64,000 bases of DNA, taken from the NCBI RefSeq assembly GCF_053078305.1, contig NZ_CP166879.1; one strand, written 5' to 3'. The position numbers were made by a program, and so were the translations under genes. Each line of letters opens with the position of its first letter. The stretch's first letter is position 1. This document shows, piece after piece, positions 13,618 through 22,850 of this stretch. A model generated the notes under the pieces. It saw only the letters and a list, made by a program, of their open reading frames with translations, was not told the origin of the DNA and made no database searches.

Positions 13618-13646
13618 AGCCCGCCGGTTCAGGCGGGCTTTTTTGT
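13618..13646 (+). terminator. Rho-independent terminator after lom
   Basis: CAGCCCGCC-GGTTCA-GGCGGGC hairpin followed by TTTTTTG. Confidence 0.7.
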
Positions 13647-13655
13647 GGGGTGAAT

Positions 13656-16600
13656 ATGGCAGTAAAGATTTCAGGTGTACTGAAAGACGGCACAGGAAAA
13701 CCGGTACAGAACTGCACAATCCAGCTGAAAGCAAAACGTAACAGCACCACGGTGGTGGTGAACACGCTGGCCTCAGAAAATCCGGATGAAGCCGGGCGTT
13801 ACAGCATGGACGTTGAGTACGGTCAGTACAGCGTTATTCTGTTGGTGGAAGGATTCCCGCCGTCACATGCCGGGACCATCACCGTGTATGAAGATTCTCA
13901 ACCCGGTACGCTGAATGATTTTCTCGGTGCCATGACGGAGGATGATGCCCGTCCGGAGGCACTGCGCCGTTTTGAACTGATGGTGGAAGAGGTGGCGCGT
14001 AACGCGTCCGTAGTGGCACAGAACACGGCAGCCGCGAAGAAGTCAGCCGGCGATGCCAGCACATCTGCCCGTGAGGCGGCAACCCATGCGACTGATGCTG
14101 CAGATTCAGCACGTGCAGCCAGCACGTCAGCCGGACAGGCCGCTTCGTCGGCTCAGTCAGCGTCTTCCAGCGCAGGAACGGCATCAACAAAGGCCACTGA
14201 AGCCTCAAAAAGTGCTGCCGCTGCAGAGTCCTCAAAAAGCGTGGCAGCTACCAGTGCCGGTGCGGCGAAAACGTCAGAAACGAATGCCGCAGCGTCAGAA
14301 CAATCAGCCGCCACTTCTGCATCCACCGCGACCACGAAAGCGTCAGAAGCTGCCACCTCAGCCCGGGATGCGGCGGCCTCAAAAGAGGCAGCGAAATCAT
14401 CAGAAACGAACGCATCCTTGAGCGCCAGTAGCGCAGCTTCCTCGGCAACGGCGGCAGGAAATTCCGCGAAGGCGGCAAAAACGTCCGAGACGAACGCCAG
14501 GTCTTCTGAGACGGCAGCGGGACAGAGCGCCTCAGCTGCGGCAGGCTCAAAAACAGCGGCTGCGTCGTCTGCCAGTGCCGCGTCAACAAGTGCCGGGCAG
14601 GCCTCAGCCAGTGCCACCGCCGCCGGAAAATCGGCAGAAAGCGCCGCATCATCCGCTTCAACAGCCACAACGAAGGCTGGCGAAGCCACTGAGCAGGCCA
14701 CGGCAGCAGCGAGGTCAGCTTCCGCAGCGAAGACATCCGAAACGAACGCGAAAGCGTCGGAAACCCGTGCAGAATCCTCAAAAACGGCAGCGGCATCGTC
14801 CGCCAGTTCGGCGGCGTCATCGGCATCATCGGCGTCTGCTTCAAAAGATGAGGCGACCAGACAGGCGTCAGCAGCGAAGGGCAGCGCCACGACGGCATCC
14901 ACGAAGGCGACAGAGGCTGCTGGTAGTGCGAAGGCAGCAGCTCAGAGCAAAAGTACGGCGGAATCTGCAGCAACGCGCGCTGAGACAGCGGCAAAACGGG
15001 CAGAGGATATTGCATCCGCCGTGGCACTTGAGGATGCGAGCACGACGAAAAAGGGGATAGTACAGCTCAGTAGTGCGACTAACAGCACTTCCGAGTCACT
15101 GGCGGCAACACCAAAAGCCGTTAAGGCCGCGTATGACCTGGCTAACGGGAAATACACCGCACAGGATGCAACGACAGCACAGAAAGGGATAATCCAGCTA
15201 AGCAGCGCGACCAACAGCACGTCTGAAACGCTGGCGGCAACGCCAAAGGCAGTAAAAGCAGCCAATGACAATGCTGAGAAACGTCTGCAGAAAGATCAGA
15301 ACGGTGCGGATATCCCTGGCAAAGACACCTTTACGAAAAATATTGGTGCCTGCCGTGCCTTCGGTGGGTCAGTAAGCACAACAACAGGAAACTGGACGAC
15401 TGCACAGTTTATCGAGTGGCTGGATTCTCAGGGAGCATTTAACCATCCATACTGGATGTGCAAGGGTTCCTGGTCTTATGGCAATAATAAAATCATTACT
15501 GATACTGGCTGCGGTAATATTCATCTCGCCGGAGCTGTCATTGAAGTAATGGGGATAAAGTCAGCGATGACGATCCGCATTACCACTCCGACCACATCCA
15601 GCGGTGGCGGAACAACCAACGCCCAGTTTACCTATATTAATCACGGAACAGATTATTCACCTGGCTGGCGAAGGGACTATAACTCCAGAAATAAGCCAAC
15701 GGCATCAGAGATCGGGGCGCTACCGTCAGGTGGAACAGCAGTATCATCAGTTAATCTGGCTTCAAAAGGTCGGGTAGCCGCGCTGACAGACAATACGCAG
15801 GGGGCAGCAGGTCTTGAGTTATACGAGGTGTATAACAACGGATATCCAACAACGTATGGAAATATCATTCACCTGAAAGGGATGACAGCCGTTGGCGAAG
15901 GTGAGTTACTCATCGGCTGGAGTGGTACAAGCGGTGCTCATGCTCCGGCATTTATTCGTTCACGACGGGATACGACCGACGCAAACTGGTCGCCGTGGGC
16001 GCAGCTTTACACCTCGGCTCATCCTCCTGCAGAGTTTTATCCAGTCGGTGCACCAATCCCGTGGCCATCAGATACCGTTCCGTCTGGTTATGCCCTGATG
16101 CAGGGGCAGACTTTTGACAAATCTGCATACCCGAAACTTGCAGCCGCTTATCCGTCAGGCGTGATCCCTGATATGCGTGGCTGGACGATTAAGGGCAAAC
16201 CTGCCAGTGGTCGGGCCGTATTGTCTCAGGAACAGGACGGCATTAAATCGCACACCCACAGCGCCAGCGCATCCAGTACGGATTTGGGGACGAAAACCAC
16301 ATCGTCGTTTGATTACGGCACTAAATCCACGAATAACATCGGGGCGCATACGCACAGTGTGAGCGGTACAGCCGCAAGTGCCGGAAACCATACTCATAGT
16401 GTCACAGGCGCATCAGCAGTCAGCCAGTGGTCACAAAATGGGTCAGTACATAAGGTAGTGTCTGCGGCCAGTGTGAATACAAGTGCTGCAGGAGCGCACA
16501 CTCATAGTGTCAGCGGCACAGCTGCATCTGCAGGTGCTCACGCACATACTGTCGGTATTGGTGCTCATACGCACTCGGTTGCGATTGGCTCACATGGACA

Positions 16601-16682
16601 CACCATCACCGTTAACGCTGCTGGTAACGCGGAAAACACCGTCAAAAACATCGCATTTAACTATATTGTGAGGCTTGCATAA
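13656..16682 (+). CDS. stf: Side tail fiber protein Stf, apparently intact, with Ala/Ser-rich repetitive shaft and His-rich C-terminal repeats
   Basis: ~1008-aa ORF; N-terminus [49 protein letters not shown]... and C-terminus ...[31 protein letters not shown] match K-12 StfR/lambda Stf family as recalled. Confidence 0.85.
14050..15010 (+). repeat. Low-complexity Ala/Ser/Thr-rich tandem repeats inside stf coding sequence
   Basis: Repeated motifs such as [19 protein letters not shown]; the run also generates long spurious ORFs on both strands (14153..14902 -, 14248..15027 -, 14575..15060 +). Confidence 0.7.
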
Positions 16683-17266
16683 TGGCATTCAGAATGAGTG
16701 AACAACCACGGACCATAAAAATTTATAATCTGCTGTCCGGAACTAATGAATTTATTGGTGAAGGTGATGCATATATTCCGCCTCATACAGGTCTGCCAGC
16801 AAACAGTACCGATATTGCACCGCCAGATATTCCGGCTGGTTTCGTGGCTGTTTTCAACAGTGATGAGTCATCGTGGCATCTCGTTGAAGATCATCGGGGT
16901 AAAACGGTTTATGACGTGGCTTCCGGCGACGCGTTATTTATTTCTGAACTCGGCTCATTACCGGAAAATGTCACCTGGTTATCCCCGGAAGGGGAGTTTC
17001 AGAAGTGGAACGGCACAGCCTGGGTGAAGGATACGGAAGCAGAAAAACTGTTCCGGATCCGGGAGGCGGAAGAAACAAAAAACAGCCTGATGCAGGTAGC
17101 CAGTGAGCATATAGCGCCGCTTCAGGATGCTGTGGATCTGGAGATCGCAACGGAGAAAGAAACCTTGTTGCTGGAAGCCTGGAAAAAGTATCGGGTGTTG
17201 CTGAACCGTGTTGATACATCAACTGCACCTGATATTGAGTGGCCTACGAACCCTGTCAGGGAGTAA
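16682..17266 (+). CDS. tfa: Tail fiber assembly protein Tfa
   Basis: 194-aa product [54 protein letters not shown]... matches the TfaR/Tfa family; start overlaps the stf stop. Confidence 0.88.
17101..17228 (+). repeat. Direct repeat copy 1 (tfa 3' end), roughly 85% identical to 18150..18277
   Basis: Sequences beginning CAGTGAGCATATAGCGCCGCTTCAGGATGCTGTGGATCTGGAGATCGCAACGGAG and CAGTGAGTATATTGCGCCACTGCAGGATGCTGTAGATCTGGAAATCGCAACGGAG align; identity is an eyeball estimate. Confidence 0.75.
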
Positions 17267-18149: not shown

Positions 18150-18277
18150 CAGTGAGTATATTGCGCCACTGCAGGATGCTGTAGATCTGGAAATCGCAAC
18201 GGAGGAAGAAAGATCGTTGCTGGAGGCATGGAATAAATATCGGGTATTGTTGAATCGAGTTGATACATCAGTAGCTC
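18150..18277 (+). repeat. Direct repeat copy 2 (tfa 3' end remnant)
   Basis: See copy 1 at 17101..17228. Confidence 0.75.
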
Positions 18278-18534: not shown

Positions 18535-20019
18535 TTATTGTATTTCTGCTTCAGAATTTCCTGGGCAGTATATATTTTCTGGTTTTTGTGGAGTGATCAG
18601 GTGATGTACAACTGCTTTATCTACACATAAATTAACTCCGGTGAGAGCTAATGTATGCCCATCACCATTTATTGTTAGTAACGGGCTGGAAAATTTCTCT
18701 GCCATCTTACGGGCATTAATCCAGGGCGTTGTTGGGTCGTATTTGTGTGCTACAAACAGTAAACCAGAGGGCAGAACAGTATTTTTCAGGCGAGTTTTGT
18801 TCAGGTCGCTATGTATTGGCCATAATTCACAAAAATCAGGTGAATCGGAACGTCCATTGTCAAAGTTAATAGCCGGGAAGGCATTCGCAAGAGCGTCTTT
18901 TCGGGATTTTCGCTCTTCTGGTGTTAATTGCTCATCCCCCTGATCTACACAGAGGATTACCCCCGAAGCATCGCTTGACTCTTCTGAGGCTATCGGAGCA
19001 CTGAGCGCAGTTTCAATTTCATTACTGACAATCCCCTGAGAGAACTGGCGTATGGCAGTTGCAAGGGTTGGCCATGATGAACGCCATAGCAGAAGGTCTG
19101 TTGTTAATGATATGAGTTCATCTGAAGATATATTTTCTCCCTTACTGTCTAATAAAGGTTTGTGATGTAATTTTGATAATAGCTCATGGAACTGAGTTAT
19201 TGCCTTATCTCTGTCTGAAGAAAGCGGGCAACTTTTTGTACGCGCACACCAGGATGCAAAGCGATCAAACGTTTCCTGATAACTCTGTGCCTGTTTGAGT
19301 TGCCATGTGAAGTTGTCCTCCAGGTCATCGATATCGACGACTCCATCAAGAACGATAGATCTTACGTTGTAGGGAAAACGTTCTGCATATAAGGCTGCAA
19401 TTTGAGTTCCATACGAATACGCCACGGCTGTCAGTTGTTTATCCCCCAAGGCTTGCCTAATACGATCAATATCGTATACAGCCTCGTTAGAGCCGATATG
19501 GCGAATGACTTCGGCTCCGGTATTATGGATACAGGCATTAATTTTATTTAATACTTGTTGCTTTTCGGTTATGTTTTCCTGAGTCTCTGTATCTGATTGC
19601 CGGCAGTTTATTGTCGGAGTGGACTGTCCGACGCCTCGAGGATCAAATCCAATAATATCCCATGACTCACGAAGATTTGTGACTGGCCAGTCAAAGTTAA
19701 TATAAGGATTTATGCCTGGTAACCCGGGACCACCACTTATTATCAGGATACTTCCTTTATGCTTGCTTTTTGCCGGCAATTTTGTCAACGCTAGTTTGAC
19801 TTGTGATTTTTTTTCATAAGAAGCATCTCCGCCTGTGTCTGTATATTTTAATGGAACAGACAAATAACCACATAGTAAGTCAGGAGACGGTTTTTCCTCA
19901 CCAAACCAGTGGTTGAATTGACTGGCCATACAGGATTGCCACTGTATCTGCTGGGCAGATACGGTTACTGGTAGAAGTAACGTTAAAACAACTTTGAAAT
20001 GAGTAATTATTTTTCGCAT
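18535..20019 (-). CDS. Secreted alpha/beta-hydrolase fold protein, likely S33-type (tripeptidyl aminopeptidase-like) peptidase/esterase; function unknown
   Basis: 494-aa ORF with N-terminal signal peptide MRKIITHFKVVLTLLLPVTVSAQQ, GFDPRGVGQS oxyanion-region motif and SYGT nucleophile-elbow-like motif; AT-rich. Confidence 0.65.
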   Translation of the reverse strand: MRKIITHFKVVLTLLLPVTVSAQQIQWQSCMASQFNHWFGEEKPSPDLLCGYLSVPLKYTDTGGDASYEKKSQVKLALTKLPAKSKHKGSILIISGGPGLPGINPYINFDWPVTNLRESWDIIGFDPRGVGQSTPTINCRQSDTETQENITEKQQVLNKINACIHNTGAEVIRHIGSNEAVYDIDRIRQALGDKQLTAVAYSYGTQIAALYAERFPYNVRSIVLDGVVDIDDLEDNFTWQLKQAQSYQETFDRFASWCARTKSCPLSSDRDKAITQFHELLSKLHHKPLLDSKGENISSDELISLTTDLLLWRSSWPTLATAIRQFSQGIVSNEIETALSAPIASEESSDASGVILCVDQGDEQLTPEERKSRKDALANAFPAINFDNGRSDSPDFCELWPIHSDLNKTRLKNTVLPSGLLFVAHKYDPTTPWINARKMAEKFSSPLLTINGDGHTLALTGVNLCVDKAVVHHLITPQKPENIYCPGNSEAEIQ

Positions 20020-20205
20020 TGTGTCTCTGAATATCGGAATAAAGATAAGATTTGAATATATTGAGGTCTTGTGTTGCGGTAAGAGATTACACGTTATGAC
20101 ATAGGTTAAATGCTTACAAAATTAGTGGATATTGCCTACTTGTAACTGTAAACAAATTCCCCGGGGTTATACAATACCACCGGGGAGAAAATCTGGTTAA
20201 CTTCG

Positions 20206-21159
20206 TTAAAAGGTGTACTTAAGACCAGCAGTAGTGATGAAGTTATAGTTTTCTATGCCTGCACCATTTTTGCTGTAGTCTGAAGTGTTATCATTGTGAT
20301 CATAAAGTGAAGTATTACCTTTTTTATTCGTAACCCGATTCCATGCGCCTTCAACATAAACCTTTGCGTTAGGTGTTACGTAATAACCTGCATTGACTGC
20401 AACAGAATAGTAATTTTGGTCTTTGACTTTACTGCGATAAGTGATTCTTTTTCCTGGGTCATAGTGCTCATCGTTATCAGATGCTTCCACCCAGCCGCTG
20501 TATTTAAATGTGCCACCTAGCTCAAAATCTTCATAACGATAACTTCCAGTCAAGCCAATGTAGGGCATTTTAAAACGTTGTTTGTAGCCGATTGCTCTTT
20601 CTCCATTCGGGAAGGAGCCGATATCATCTCTGAATCCCTCCTCAGAACTGTAGATATAGGAACCACCTCTGGCTGTAAAGCTATAACGGCTTTCCTGATA
20701 TCCGGCCATGAGTCCCAGGCGGTAATTGGGTTCGTTGAGGAGCCAGCCTTTGATATTCAGATCAAATTCGTTGGCATAATTGAGTTGTGTATCAGGGTGC
20801 CTACTTTCATCTGTCCAGGTTCCGGGGTTACTGGAATCCATCCAGTCCTGATCGACCATATTGCCACCTCGGCTGCCGAGAGTAGTCCAGCCCGCAGCCC
20901 CAATAGATATCTGGGGCATCAAATCCCAATTAATTGCACCTTTAATAATTGCAGCGTTATTGAATTTCCAGTCGAGTTGACTGACTTTTCGGCCTCCTTC
21001 TTCAGCTAGATAAACGCGCTCTTTTGTTTTTCCGCTCAGAGTTCCAAGACTAATGTCCGCATTTATGTTGTCAGGAGTAAACGATATAGTCTCGGTAGAA
21101 GCAAAAGAGCTGATCGCAATAGGGGTTGTCAGAACTATTCCCAGAAGTTTCGCCCGCAT
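20206..21159 (-). CDS. ompT: Omptin-family outer-membrane aspartyl protease, near-identical to OmpT
   Basis: 317-aa product MRAKLLGIVLTTPIAISSFASTETISFTPDNINADISLGTLSGKTKERVYLAEEGGRKVSQLDWKFNNAAIIKG... ending ...NFITTAGLKYTF, matching E. coli OmpT as recalled. Confidence 0.9.
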   Translation of the reverse strand: MRAKLLGIVLTTPIAISSFASTETISFTPDNINADISLGTLSGKTKERVYLAEEGGRKVSQLDWKFNNAAIIKGAINWDLMPQISIGAAGWTTLGSRGGNMVDQDWMDSSNPGTWTDESRHPDTQLNYANEFDLNIKGWLLNEPNYRLGLMAGYQESRYSFTARGGSYIYSSEEGFRDDIGSFPNGERAIGYKQRFKMPYIGLTGSYRYEDFELGGTFKYSGWVEASDNDEHYDPGKRITYRSKVKDQNYYSVAVNAGYYVTPNAKVYVEGAWNRVTNKKGNTSLYDHNDNTSDYSKNGAGIENYNFITTAGLKYTF

Positions 21160-21531
21160 AAAAGTTCTCCATTCAATCGTTTTAATGATTGAATATGTAT
21201 TTTTTATATCTAACTTAATGAGTCAATCACATATTGCTCCACTGTTTATATTTTGTTTAGTATTGAATGATTATCACAATGCGCTATCTGTTTTTGGTTT
21301 AATTATCTGTTATTGTTTTATGTTGCGGTTTTACTGTGTGGTTTTTTATGCTTTTGTGGTGTTTTTATCTATTTAAGCGCCATGCCTTTAAAGGCATATA
21401 AGCGAAAATAGCATGAGGTTTATCCTCAATTGCTATGTTTTTTAGTACAAAAAAGAGGGACAAAACTGAGACACACATAGCTTTGTACTGGATTGCAAGG
21501 CTTTGTGCTCTTCGATAGTGGTTAAGGCGGA

Positions 21532-22689
21532 TTACTCCACCTTCCCATCAAGCCAGTCCGCCCACCATTGCATCATTTCTCTGCGCTTATCGAGATACTG
21601 AGCATGGTTGTAAATTCCACGTACAGATCCGCCGTTGGCATGTGCCAGTTGCACTTCAATGGCGTCGGCAGGCCATTCGTGCTCGTTCATAATCGTGCTG
21701 AATTCATGCCTGAATCCGTGACCGCTTTCCAGACCTTCATAGCCGATTTGTTTGATCACAAGTAGCACCGCGTTCTCGCAGATTGGCTTCTTCTTATCGT
21801 TGCGCCCGGAAAAAACAAACTCTGATACTGGTTTAGTGATTGAGCTTAGTGTAGTGAGAAGTTCAACCACCTGGTCTGACATCGGGACAACATGAATTTT
21901 GCGTCCCTTCATCACATTGGCGTCGATGGTGATAATCCTGTTTTCAAAATCGACGTTCTTCCATAGCATGGAACGAAGCTCTTTTGTTCTGAGGGCTGTG
22001 TAGCGTAAAACTTTGGTCGCAATGAGCGATACGATGCTTCCTGAAAATGTTGCCAGTGCTTTGTTAAATGCCGGGATCTGGTCTGCAGGAAGAAACGGGA
22101 AGTTTTTCTTGCGGTATCCCTTCATGGCGTCAGCAAGGTCAGGTGCCGGGTTATATTTAGCCCTACCAGTGACAATAGCGTAACGGAAAACCTCGCCGCA
22201 TCTTCTGCGGGCTTTGTTGGCTCGCTCCATTGCACCGCGATCTTCAAATCTGCGGATTACTTCCAGCAGTTGCATCGGCTCAATATCCTGAATTTCAAGG
22301 CCGCCGATGATAGGTAAAATGTCGTCATCAAACATTTTTGCAAGTTCAGTTGCATAGCCTACTGACCAGACTTGCTTCTTGTGCTCGTACCATTCCTTGT
22401 AAATCGCACTAAAGGAATTGTTGTTAGACGAAGCCTTTTTCGCTTTTACCGGATCGATGCCAACCGAGATGTCTTTCCTCGCGGTCCATGCTTTATCTCT
22501 TGCCTCCTGCAAAGTCATAAGCGGATATTTTCCTACGGTCAGGATTTTCTCCTTACCGTCAATCTTGTAGCGAAGCTGCCATACCTTTTTCCCTGACACA
22601 GGGACATAAAGGTACAGGCCATTACCATCGAGTAGGCGGTATGGTTTTTCTTTCGGCTTTGCTGCTTCAATCTGCTTAACGGTGAGCAT
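21532..22689 (-). CDS. intS: Prophage tyrosine integrase (IntS/P4-like family)
   Basis: Product MLTVKQIEAAKPKEKPYRLLDGNGLYLYVPVSGKKVWQLRYKIDGKEK... with C-terminal catalytic region (..HGFRHEF..., ..RGIYNHAQY..); adjacent to tRNA; start chosen at the MLTVKQ Met (ORF track extends to 22725). Confidence 0.88.
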   Translation of the reverse strand: MLTVKQIEAAKPKEKPYRLLDGNGLYLYVPVSGKKVWQLRYKIDGKEKILTVGKYPLMTLQEARDKAWTARKDISVGIDPVKAKKASSNNNSFSAIYKEWYEHKKQVWSVGYATELAKMFDDDILPIIGGLEIQDIEPMQLLEVIRRFEDRGAMERANKARRRCGEVFRYAIVTGRAKYNPAPDLADAMKGYRKKNFPFLPADQIPAFNKALATFSGSIVSLIATKVLRYTALRTKELRSMLWKNVDFENRIITIDANVMKGRKIHVVPMSDQVVELLTTLSSITKPVSEFVFSGRNDKKKPICENAVLLVIKQIGYEGLESGHGFRHEFSTIMNEHEWPADAIEVQLAHANGGSVRGIYNHAQYLDKRREMMQWWADWLDGKVE

Positions 22690-22850
22690 GGGTAAAAATC
22701 CGGTGGGTAAAATTATTTTATCCACTTTTTACCCGTCATGGAGTGCGGCTGTCAACGATCTGAAGCGAACCATGACGAACTGTGAATCTACGGAAGGCTT
22801 GATATTCAGGGGATTTTGCGGACTGGTACGGATGGAGGCGAACTGATAAA

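What the first reader, a model, noticed from the sequence alone, without database searches (positions are those of the whole stretch)
21160..21531. AT-rich ~370-bp spacer between the omptin start and the integrase stop
This non-coding stretch is extremely AT-rich with poly-T/poly-A tracts and should contain the omptin promoter; the only ORF predicted here (21053..21376, +) is hydrophobic low-complexity read-through of AT-rich DNA and lacks a ribosome binding site. In K-12 the region downstream of intS encodes gtr serotype-conversion genes (from memory), so this junction is where cargo differs between argW prophages and is a plausible recombination hotspot.
Basis: inference. Interest (0 to 1): 0.2.

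Follow-up and report, generated by a model that had tools for sequence, protein, structure and literature searches.

The report
OmpT promoter joined to phage integrase
This AT-rich gap holds the ordinary PhoP-controlled promoter of the outer-membrane protease gene ompT, joined to a prophage integrase gene through a short conserved hairpin sequence where lambda-like phages swap cargo genes; it is phage mosaicism, not a hidden gene.

Summary
Window 21160-21531 is a 372-bp non-coding gap between the ompT start (21159, minus strand) and the intS stop (21532). Its GC is 32%, against 52% for the window.

- **21160-21458:** the normal ompT regulatory region, about 96% identical to K-12. It has a perfect reverse-strand PhoP box (21243-21259), a sigma-70-like promoter (21199-21226), a 5'-UTR stem-loop and the OmrA/B pairing site.
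- **21459-21519:**

The element occurs at 173 places in phage contigs and in phage lambda itself, next to sib. Its neighbours on the cargo side fall into 63 protein clusters, including gtrA, acyltransferases, tailspikes and tail fibre assembly proteins. On the other side are at least four integrase types.

The window is a recombinant. A DLP12-type ompT cassette is joined to a KplE1/Sf6-type intS module, with the crossover inside the 17 bases GACAAAACTGAGACACA (21459-21475). Only 16 of 5,426 complete E. coli genomes have this join.

The three ORFs in the gap are not conserved, and Rfam finds no RNA family there. The hairpin's function is unproven; an integrase-sense RNA hairpin acting as terminator or insulator is my best guess. 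Overall this is ordinary, with one modestly interesting by-product.

The parts
20206..21159 (-). ompT coding sequence (317 aa omptin)
   Evidence: ORF list. Pfam Omptin E 3e-130. PGAP names the identical protein OmpT in near-identical genomes.
20153..20195 (-). ompT terminator hairpin followed by a U-rich tail
   Evidence: Fold -19.6 kcal/mol, z -2.6. K-12 Term-seq places the primary ompT 3' end at a hairpin in the equivalent position (PMC7815308 supplement).
21140..21174 (-). OmrA/OmrB pairing region of the ompT mRNA (-15 to +20 relative to the ATG)
   Evidence: Pairing defined in PMC2588501. These bases are identical to K-12 in alignment A2.
21167..21170 (-). Shine-Dalgarno GGAG of ompT
   Evidence: Read from the minus strand, 7 nt before the ATG.
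21170..21195 (-). 5'-UTR stem-loop (UAUUCAAUC / GAUUGAAUG), directly before the Shine-Dalgarno sequence
   Evidence: Fold -8.0 kcal/mol, z -2.8. One arm position varies (21193, G in the two B2-type strains) among K-12, B2 strains and O157.
21199..21226 (-). Predicted sigma-70 promoter of ompT (-35 TTGACT, 16-bp spacer, -10 AAAAAT); predicted start near 21192
   Evidence: Consensus scan. Invariant across all seven aligned strains. The start site was not mapped here.
21243..21259 (+). PhoP box TGTTTA-TATTT-TGTTTA, reverse-oriented relative to ompT, 84-100 bp upstream of the ATG
   Evidence: The only perfect match in the 64 kb. Both half-sites are kept in O157. Functional evidence for such a box in ompT comes from preprint 10.1101/2020.02.28.965145.
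21270..21370 (.). T-tract-rich distal upstream region of ompT (A-rich on the ompT sense strand)
   Evidence: AT skew -0.41, GC 0.29; T runs listed. Conserved in K-12-like strains and diverged in O157:H7. Its function is inferred only.
21382..21397 (.). 16-bp perfect palindrome ATGCCTTTAAAGGCAT
   Evidence: Fold z -2.6 and -3.1 on the two strands. Imperfect in K-12 and in B2 strains. Function unknown.
21414..21428 (-). Weak terminator-like hairpin (TGAGG..CCTCA, then TGCTATTTTC)
   Evidence: Pattern scan. The count is not above the shuffled expectation.
21459..21519 (.). Conserved phage boundary element: left arm GACAAAACTGAGACACA, then a hairpin (arms 21474-21487 and 21494-21507, loop 21488-21493), then CTCTTCGATAGT
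   Evidence: Shared by K-12 ompT-upstream DNA and by intS-downstream DNA. Found at 173 places in phage contigs and in lambda at 27,473-27,510. The consensus fold favours the minus strand.
21459..21475 (.). Crossover interval of the DLP12-type / IntS-type recombinant
   Evidence: To the left, 1 mismatch in 317 bp against Ec1115. From 21459 rightwards, 2 mismatches in 73 bp against the NCTC11121 intS flank. The 17 bases are common to both parental types.
21532..22689 (-). intS (KplE1/Sf6-type tyrosine integrase, 385 aa)
   Evidence: Pfam. PGAP names it 'prophage integrase IntS' in near-identical genomes.
22850..22865 (-). attL core CTGCAGGGGACACCAT at the 3' end of tRNA-Arg argW (22854-22925)
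   Evidence: Exact single match. Core sequence from PMC2951348. tRNA found by Rfam.
18535..20019 (-). 494-aa alpha/beta hydrolase (TAP-like) that travels with ompT as cargo
   Evidence: Pfam Abhydrolase_1 and Abhydrolase_4. The same pair is in O157:H7, Ec1115 and phage PhiR26_1.

Best explanation
The gap is made of two pieces.

**Piece 1 (21160-21458): the standard regulatory region of ompT.** Its parts are:
- a sigma-70 promoter about 33 nt upstream of the ATG;
- a reverse-oriented PhoP box centred about 60 bp upstream of the predicted start, through which PhoP activates transcription at low Mg2+;
- a T-tract-rich distal region;
- a short leader with a 5' stem-loop, a Shine-Dalgarno sequence and the OmrA/OmrB pairing site.

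**Piece 2 (21459-21531): the 3' flank of the integrase gene intS.** It begins with a roughly 60-bp hairpin element that lambdoid and P22-like phages carry at the edge of their integration module, at the right end of the 'b region' in lambda.

**How the arrangement arose.** ompT and its hydrolase neighbour are cargo ('morons') sitting between the tail fibre genes and the integrase of a lambda-like prophage at argW. Homologous recombination inside the element's 17-bp conserved left arm joined a DLP12-type phage (ompT - element - attP - intD) to a phage with the KplE1/Sf6-type module (torI - attP - intS - element).

**Shown:**
- the homologies, the breakpoint and the element's distribution;
- independent reassortment of its two flanks;
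- non-conservation of the ORFs.

**Inferred:**
- promoter use, which rests on the match to a functionally tested site in K-12;
- a role for the hairpin, with the T runs after it on the integrase-sense strand, in stopping or processing intS transcripts so that ompT keeps its own control.
For: **ompT regulatory region**
- Window 21000-21504 matches the ompT upstream region of thousands of E. coli genomes (K-12 95.8%). Window 21458-21700 matches intS flanks. Only 16 of 5,426 genomes join the two.
- The PhoP box is unique in the window, and there is a promoter-like site.
- The first ~130 bp upstream of the ATG are nearly invariant from K-12 to O157.
- Published function: PhoP-box mutation, the -220..+30 fusion and OmrA/B pairing.

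**Junction**
- K-12 has the element about 80 bp from the argU-derived attR (pauD) of DLP12.
- Phage PhiR26_1 carries hydrolase-ompT-element next to an IntD-type integrase.
- The crossover maps to 21459-21475.

**The element in other phages**
- It occurs at 173 places. On one side are IntS, IntD-like, a 44-48%-identical integrase in the opposite orientation, or lambda Int. On the other side are 63 neighbour clusters.
- The same left flank is found with three different right modules, and the reverse.
- RNAalifold gives -8.9 kcal/mol with 12 pairs on the minus strand, 3 of them with double-sided changes. The plus strand gives -2.1 kcal/mol.

**Prophage context**
- It is a lambda-like prophage with tail genes, lom, stf and tfa.
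Against: - The ompT start site was not mapped in this strain. The -10 hexamer is poor (AAAAAT).
- The window's own copy of the hairpin is weak (z -0.36 on the minus strand). It carries two changes that weaken the integrase-sense stem.
- The element is not a canonical intrinsic terminator. The U run starts 6-8 nt after the stem, and the scan did not call it. Lambda and some other phages lack the U-run arm altogether.
- Most of the covariation is one difference between two sequence types, so it amounts to few independent events.
- K-12 Term-seq shows no 3' end at either K-12 copy, though envY and intS are barely expressed.
Confidence: 0.8

Rival explanations
1. The gap encodes a conserved small protein or an sRNA of its own.
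For: Three ORFs of 32-107 aa overlap the gap. The frame of 21365..21478 (-) stays open in K-12 and in B2 strains. Several small hairpins are present.
Against: ORFs 21053..21376 and 21313..21411 have stops or frameshifts in other strains. The ATG of 21365..21478 is created by the junction itself (other strains have TTA), and 7-8 of its ~9 substitutions change the amino acid. None has a Pfam hit. No Rfam family reaches E <= 1 in the gap. The only promoter-like site in the gap is the one that serves ompT.
Confidence: 0.03
2. The ompT-intS join was made by a chromosomal rearrangement between the resident DLP12 (argU) and CPS-53/KplE1 (argW) prophage remnants, not by recombination between phages before integration.
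For: Both K-12 prophage remnants carry a copy of the element. Eleven of the 16 genomes with the join have no second copy of this region, so ompT is absent from its usual place there.
Against: The argW prophage here has a contiguous lambda-like late region (tail genes, J, lom, stf, tfa) running into the ompT cassette. In a related genome it has torI at the far end. K-12 DLP12 (head and tail genes lost) and KplE1 (small remnant) could not supply that. A phage record, PhiR26_1, carries the same hydrolase-ompT cassette. Rb-50 has the same backbone with different cargo.
Confidence: 0.1
3. The hairpin element works as double-stranded DNA, as a protein-binding site, rather than as an RNA hairpin. Candidates are lambda CII-type TTGC-N6-TTGC repeats or a host bending protein serving the nearby att site.
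For: The common form reads TTGC-ACTGGA-TTGC-AAGGCT-TTGT, three tetrads at 10-bp spacing. The phage 434 record annotates it as predicted CII sites. The 3' arm TTGCAAGGCTTT is the most conserved block in both sequence types. The element is always within about 20-450 bp of an integrase gene end or an att site.
Against: The DLP12-type form does not keep the TTGC repeats. No suitably spaced -10 follows them (read from the sequence). Four unrelated integrase types in two orientations would not share arm sites. Non-Watson-Crick positions are mostly G-U on one strand, which matters only for RNA.
Confidence: 0.2
4. The element has no function of its own. It is a stretch of shared ancestry that persists because recombinants that cross over in it are viable.
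For: Both flanks reassort freely. The window's copy and the Rb-50 copy are degraded. There is no canonical terminator signature.
Against: It is conserved from lambda to P22-like phages across Escherichia, Shigella and Salmonella, while the sequence on both sides is replaced. The stem is kept between the two sequence types by paired changes (14/43 CG versus UA).
Confidence: 0.2

Closest known systems
ompT regulatory region of E. coli K-12 (PhoP-activated promoter, OmrA/OmrB-targeted leader)
   Same: About 96% identical over 345 bp upstream of the ATG. The PhoP box, promoter-like hexamers, leader stem-loop, Shine-Dalgarno sequence and sRNA pairing site are the same.
   Different: In K-12 the region continues into the DLP12 attR (the argU fragment pauD) and envY. 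Here it is cut off at 21475 and continues into intS at argW. O157:H7 has a different distal half. That fits the published higher ompT expression in EHEC (cited).
Lambda tI / sib (terminator and RNase III retroregulation site downstream of int)
   Same: It is a hairpin just outside the integration module, on the far side from xis, transcribed in the integrase sense. In IntS-type phages it lies 25-70 bp after the integrase stop codon.
   Different: It is not sib. Lambda carries both, with the element lying directly beside the tI/sib hairpin on the b-region side. It has no canonical U tract, and there is no evidence of RNase III processing.
Boundary or linker sequences between modules of lambdoid phages (Clark et al. 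2001, HK620 paper; recalled from memory, not read here)
   Same: It is a short conserved sequence at a module border, with unrelated genes on either side in different phages. Recombinants cross over inside it.
   Different: This one has conserved dyad symmetry with paired changes, which suggests a function beyond providing homology. I found no paper containing its sequence.
KplE1 / HK620 / Sf6 recombination module (IntS, TorI, attL overlapping the intS promoter)
   Same: intS reads away from argW, the 16-nt core is present, and torI is at the far prophage end in a related genome.
   Different: The published work concerns the 5' side of intS. The 3' flank studied here is not part of the described module.

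Membership tests
E. coli ompT promoter/leader | Lies directly upstream of an omptin gene and is homologous to the K-12 ompT upstream region | tested here: met
   95.8% identity over window 21000-21504.
E. coli ompT promoter/leader | PhoP box (T/G)GTTTA-N5-(T/G)GTTTA on the reverse strand upstream of the promoter | tested here: met
   TGTTTATATTTTGTTTA at 21243-21259, the only match in the window.
E. coli ompT promoter/leader | Mapped transcription start and PhoP-dependent, low-Mg2+-induced expression | not testable with these tools
   There is only a consensus promoter match. Experimental data exist for K-12, not for this strain.
E. coli ompT promoter/leader | OmrA/OmrB pairing site at -15 to +20 | tested here: met
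   Window 21140-21174 is identical to K-12. The pairing is defined in PMC2588501.
Moron (autonomous transcription unit inserted in a prophage late region) | Own promoter and own terminator, located between phage genes, and absent from related phages | tested here: met
   Promoter-like site and terminator hairpin. It is flanked by tail fibre assembly genes and intS. It is replaced by other genes in Rb-50, NCTC11121 and VTB97448v.
KplE1/Sf6-type recombination module | IntS-type integrase reading away from tRNA argW, with the 16-nt core at the tRNA 3' end | tested here: met
   layout.
KplE1/Sf6-type recombination module | TorI excisionase and attR at the opposite prophage end | not tested
   That end lies outside the window. 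It was seen in a related genome.
Rho-independent terminator (for the hairpin element) | GC-rich stem immediately followed by a U tract | tested here: not met
   The scan did not report it. The U4 run begins 6-8 nt after the stem. Lambda and some other phage copies lack the run.
Lambda sib / tI | Sequence or positional identity with the lambda sib hairpin | tested here: not met
   Lambda has the element at 27,473-27,510 and the sib/tI hairpin separately beside it.
Any Rfam family | Covariance-model match | tested here: not met
   Only the tRNA model (and, on its opposite strand, a far sub-threshold Plastid-ycf2 match) reached E <= 1 in 20000-23200; nothing fell in the gap.
Small protein gene | Reading frame and start codon conserved, with substitutions biased to synonymous sites | tested here: not met
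   no Pfam hits.

The most novel reading that the evidence does not exclude
The roughly 60-bp hairpin element (window 21459-21519; lambda 27,473-27,510) may be a functional, so far undescribed part of lambdoid and P22-like phage genomes. It could be an integrase-sense RNA hairpin, or a DNA site, that insulates the integration module from the adjacent cargo region. By staying conserved, it would also define the right-hand edge of the hot spot where these phages exchange conversion, defence and virulence genes such as gtr, oac and ompT.
Probability: 0.3. Interest if true: 0.55.

Novelty: new member of a known kind. Interest (0 to 1): 0.3.

Why it matters
**The gap itself.** It explains how ompT, a protease that degrades host antimicrobial peptides, can sit in a mobile, apparently complete lambda-like prophage at argW with its PhoP-controlled promoter intact. 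The gene can therefore move between strains without losing its regulation.

**The wider point.** A single short conserved sequence marks where many temperate phages of enterobacteria exchange cargo next to their integrase. If it proves functional, two things follow:
- It would be a handle for finding cargo islands in prophages.
- It would offer a testable mechanism for module exchange.

None of this changes current understanding of ompT or of integrases.

Tried and rejected
- **Rfam** search at a permissive threshold found nothing in the gap.
- **Small ORFs:** three were tested across six relatives and rejected.
- **Canonical terminator** reading of the hairpin was not supported by the scan or by the lambda copy.
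- **Strand of the hairpin:** my first count of pairs was ambiguous (0.82 versus 0.85 paired). RNAalifold on 45 unbiased variants favoured the integrase-sense strand. Most of that signal is a single difference between two sequence types.
- **Experimental 3' ends** at the two K-12 copies: none are recorded in Term-seq.
- **Literature search** for the element's sequence gave no hits.
- **A corrected assumption:** I first took NZ_CP062910 as the model for the whole prophage. Left of 16818 the window does not match it. The IS110/IS3 insertion and the loss of tail genes belong to that strain only. The window matches strain 2014C-3307, which has the tail genes.
- **HK633 'attP':** the HK633 record places an 'attP' beside the element, on the 3' side of its integrase. 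I could not reconcile this with the KplE1 layout and left it aside.
- **T-tract phasing:** spacings of 25, 13, 13, 10 and 10 bp between T runs are too irregular to claim intrinsic curvature.

Full report
**1. The observation**

The gap runs from 21160 to 21531. On one side is the ATG of a 317-aa omptin gene (20206..21159, minus strand). On the other is the stop codon of a 385-aa tyrosine integrase gene (21532..22689, minus strand). To the right of the integrase come tRNA-Arg argW (22854-22925), yfdC and mlaA.

The gap has GC 0.323, against 0.516 for the window, and is T-rich on the plus strand (154 T, 98 A). Only 1.6% of equal-sized windows are as AT-rich, and three other places in the window are as low or lower.

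**2. Two pieces of different origin**

A megablast against 5,426 complete E. coli genomes splits the gap.

- Window 21000-21504 is the ordinary upstream region of ompT. It is 95.8% identical to K-12, 98% to many strains and about 89% to B2-type strains. In O157:H7 the match stops at 21272.
- Window 21458-21700 is the ordinary 3' end and flank of intS.
- Only 16 genomes join the two as here. Most of these have no second copy of the region, so in them ompT is at argW and not at its usual place.

**3. The ompT part (21160-21458)**

On the ompT sense strand, reading towards the gene, the features are:

- A perfect PhoP box, TGTTTA-TATTT-TGTTTA, at 21243-21259. It is written on the plus strand, so it is reversed relative to ompT. 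It is the only such match in the 64 kb.
- A promoter-like site: -35 TTGACT at 21226-21221, a 16-bp spacer, and -10 AAAAAT at 21204-21199.
- A leader stem-loop at 21195-21170 (-8 kcal/mol, z -2.8).
- GGAG at 21170-21167, then the ATG.

Published work supports these assignments. A bioRxiv preprint reports a conserved reverse-strand PhoP box in ompT, ompP, arlC and croP, and its half-site mutation abolishes low-Mg2+, PhoP-dependent ompT-GFP expression (10.1101/2020.02.28.965145). A -220..+30 fragment drives an ompT-lacZ fusion, and OmrA/OmrB pair with -15 to +20 of the mRNA (PMC2588501). In the window that fragment is 21379-21130 and the pairing site is 21174-21140, both identical to K-12 in the relevant bases.

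The first ~130 bp upstream of the ATG are nearly invariant from K-12 through B2 strains to O157:H7. Further upstream O157:H7 diverges. That fits the reported promoter difference behind higher OmpT in EHEC (cited).

Use of this promoter in this strain is inferred; I could not map a start site.

**4. No hidden gene**

- ORF 21053..21376 (+) overlaps the ompT start in antisense. It has no Shine-Dalgarno sequence. It has stops in B2 strains and O157:H7 and a frameshift in K-12.
- ORF 21313..21411 (+) behaves the same way.
- The frame of ORF 21365..21478 (-) stays open in other strains. However, its ATG exists only because of the junction sequence (other strains have TTA there), and 7-8 of about 9 substitutions against B2 strains change the amino acid.
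- None of the three has a Pfam match.
- Rfam at E <= 1 finds only the tRNA model (and, on its opposite strand, a far sub-threshold Plastid-ycf2 match), nothing in the gap.

**5. The junction**

In K-12 the ompT upstream region runs on through a hairpin-like sequence. About 80 bp later it reaches the 3' fragment of tRNA argU (…CTTCTAAGTCGTGGGCCGCAGGTTCGAATCCTGCAGGGCGCGCCA). This is the right attachment site of prophage DLP12. I know it as pauD from memory, and the sequence is. envY follows.

Phage PhiR26_1 carries tfa, the alpha/beta hydrolase, ompT, the same upstream region and the att fragment at one end of its record, and an IntD-type integrase at the other end. In the circular phage the order is therefore ompT - hairpin - attP - int.

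Other argW prophages have intS followed by a related hairpin and then different genes:
- a tail fibre assembly gene in VTB97448v;
- an unknown 480-aa gene in Rb-50, whose prophage backbone is otherwise the same as the window's.

The window is identical to the DLP12-type sequence up to 21475, with 1 mismatch in 317 bp against Ec1115. From 21459 on it is nearly identical to an intS flank, with 2 mismatches in 73 bp against NCTC11121. The 17 bases GACAAAACTGAGACACA (21459-21475) are common to both. The crossover therefore lies in those 17 bases.

**6. The element**

One was anchored on the hairpin's 3' arm and the other on the left arm. Together they gave 173 occurrences.

There are two sequence types:
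- **Common type:** GACAAAACTGAGACACACAAAGCTTTGCACTGGATTGCAAGGCTTTGTGCTCTTC
- **DLP12 type:** …CACATAAGGCCTCGCAATGGCTTGCAAGGCTTTACATGTTTTG

Neighbours on the right:

| Right neighbour | Count |
|---|---|
| IntS, 98-99% identical, stop codon about 20 bp after the element | 68 |
| Only a C-terminal remnant of IntS | 21 |
| IntD-like integrase | 18 |
| Lambda Int | 1 |
| No integrase within 2.2 kb | 30 |

Among the loci scored as IntS, a subset carries instead a 44-48%-identical integrase in the opposite orientation, starting about 340 bp away.

The IntS-remnant situation is also seen in phage 434 and in Stx phages.

On the left, the nearest genes fall into 63 clusters. They include GtrA (17), acyltransferases (12), tail fibre assembly proteins (11), many P22-like tailspikes and a long tail of unknown genes.

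The same left flank occurs with three different right modules, and the reverse also holds. The two sides therefore reassort independently, and exchange happens in or at the element.

Lambda itself has the hairpin at about 27,473-27,510. It lies directly beside the tI/sib hairpin on the b-region side and about 220 bp from the att core. The element thus marks the right edge of the b region, the cargo region between tail fibre genes and the integration module. In the window that region holds ybcY, a tfa fragment, the hydrolase and ompT, downstream of a lambda-like tail gene set, lom and stf.

**7. What the element does**

This is the least certain part.

Evidence for an RNA hairpin on the integrase-sense strand:
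- On 45 unique variants chosen without constraining the hairpin, RNAalifold gives a 12-pair consensus on the minus strand, which is the sense strand of intS and ompT. The energy is -8.9 kcal/mol.
- Three pairs keep pairing through changes on both sides (for example 14/43: CG in 26 sequences, UA in 16).
- Several other positions are G-U on this strand.
- The plus strand gives only -2.1 kcal/mol.
- In most copies the hairpin is followed on that strand by CUCAGUUUUGUC.

Evidence against a simple terminator:
- The U run is not adjacent to the stem.
- It is missing in lambda and some other phages.
- The scan did not call a terminator.
- The window's own copy folds poorly.
- Most of the covariation is one difference between the two types.
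- K-12 Term-seq has no 3' end at either K-12 copy, although those genes are hardly expressed.

My best estimate is an integrase-sense RNA hairpin that ends, stabilises or processes integrase transcripts and shields the neighbouring cargo. I put this at about 0.4. A DNA-level site follows at about 0.2. The common type reads TTGC-N6-TTGC-N6-TTGT, the lambda CII consensus, and is annotated as such by prediction in phage 434. No function beyond shared homology also stands at about 0.2.

**8. Comparison with known things**

- The ompT part is a member of the known ompT regulatory region; every sequence-level feature tested was met.
- The integrase belongs to the KplE1/HK620/Sf6 module, whose 16-nt core CTGCAGGGGACACCAT is present at 22850-22865.
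- The element resembles lambda tI/sib in place and form but is not sib. It is not a canonical terminator and not in Rfam.
- It behaves like the 'boundary sequences' proposed for lambdoid phages (recalled from memory; that paper was not read here).
- I found no paper containing its sequence. This is weak evidence, because subscription journals and figures are not searched.

**9. Verdict**

The gap itself is ordinary: a known promoter region in a rare genomic setting. The added value is the precise crossover and the recognition of a widespread conserved hairpin at the cargo/integrase border of temperate enterobacterial phages, lambda included.

Noticed in passing
window 18535-20019 (and L010, L012, L006): A 494-aa alpha/beta hydrolase (TAP-like) lies immediately downstream of ompT here, in O157:H7, in Ec1115 and in phage PhiR26_1. 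K-12 has appY in its place. The breakpoints are at window ~18270-18275 and 20156. The left breakpoint is shared with Rb-50, which has a different cargo gene.
   Followed up: partly
phage lambda NC_001416 ~27,473-27,510 (L199 974-1010): Lambda carries the same hairpin directly beside the tI/sib hairpin on the b-region side. I know of no function assigned to it.
   Followed up: partly
window 21483-21506; L007 3021-3044: The element reads TTGY-N6-TTGC-N6-TTGT (TTGC-N6-TTGC in the common form), the lambda CII binding consensus. The phage 434 record annotates these as predicted CII sites. The DLP12-type form does not keep them.
   Followed up: no
window 21382-21397: A perfect 16-bp palindrome, ATGCCTTTAAAGGCAT, lies in the distal ompT upstream region. 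It is imperfect in K-12 and in B2 strains. No function is known.
   Followed up: partly
L005 2924-3004 (phage HK633): The record annotates 'attP' on the 3' side of an IntS-like integrase, right beside the element. The basis given is similarity to the K-12 ykgJ-yagV intergenic region. This conflicts with the KplE1 layout, where attP lies between torI and intS. The similarity may only reflect another copy of flanking phage DNA.
   Followed up: no
window 1752-17266: The argW prophage has an apparently complete lambda-like tail region (U, V, G, T, tape measure, M, L, K, I, J), lom (~12992-13591), stfR and tfa. This is by ~98% identity to strain 2014C-3307. The tail fibre gene differs between the two around 15137-16514. 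In another strain with the same ompT-intS join (NZ_CP062910), the tail genes are replaced by IS110 and IS3 elements.
   Followed up: partly
L014, L015, L028 and many others (viral contigs): The DLP12-type form of the element is often followed, about 280 bp on, by an integrase only 44-48% identical to IntS and reading in the opposite direction. This appears to be a further integration-module type attached to the same boundary.
   Followed up: no
window 24941-25520, 25761-26570, 33031-33820: Three other stretches are as AT-rich as the gap or more so (minimum GC 0.25 for a 372-bp window).
   Followed up: no
K-12 coordinate 585366 (equivalent to about window 20893): Published Term-seq lists an internal 3' end 267 nt into the ompT coding sequence in K-12.
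   Followed up: no
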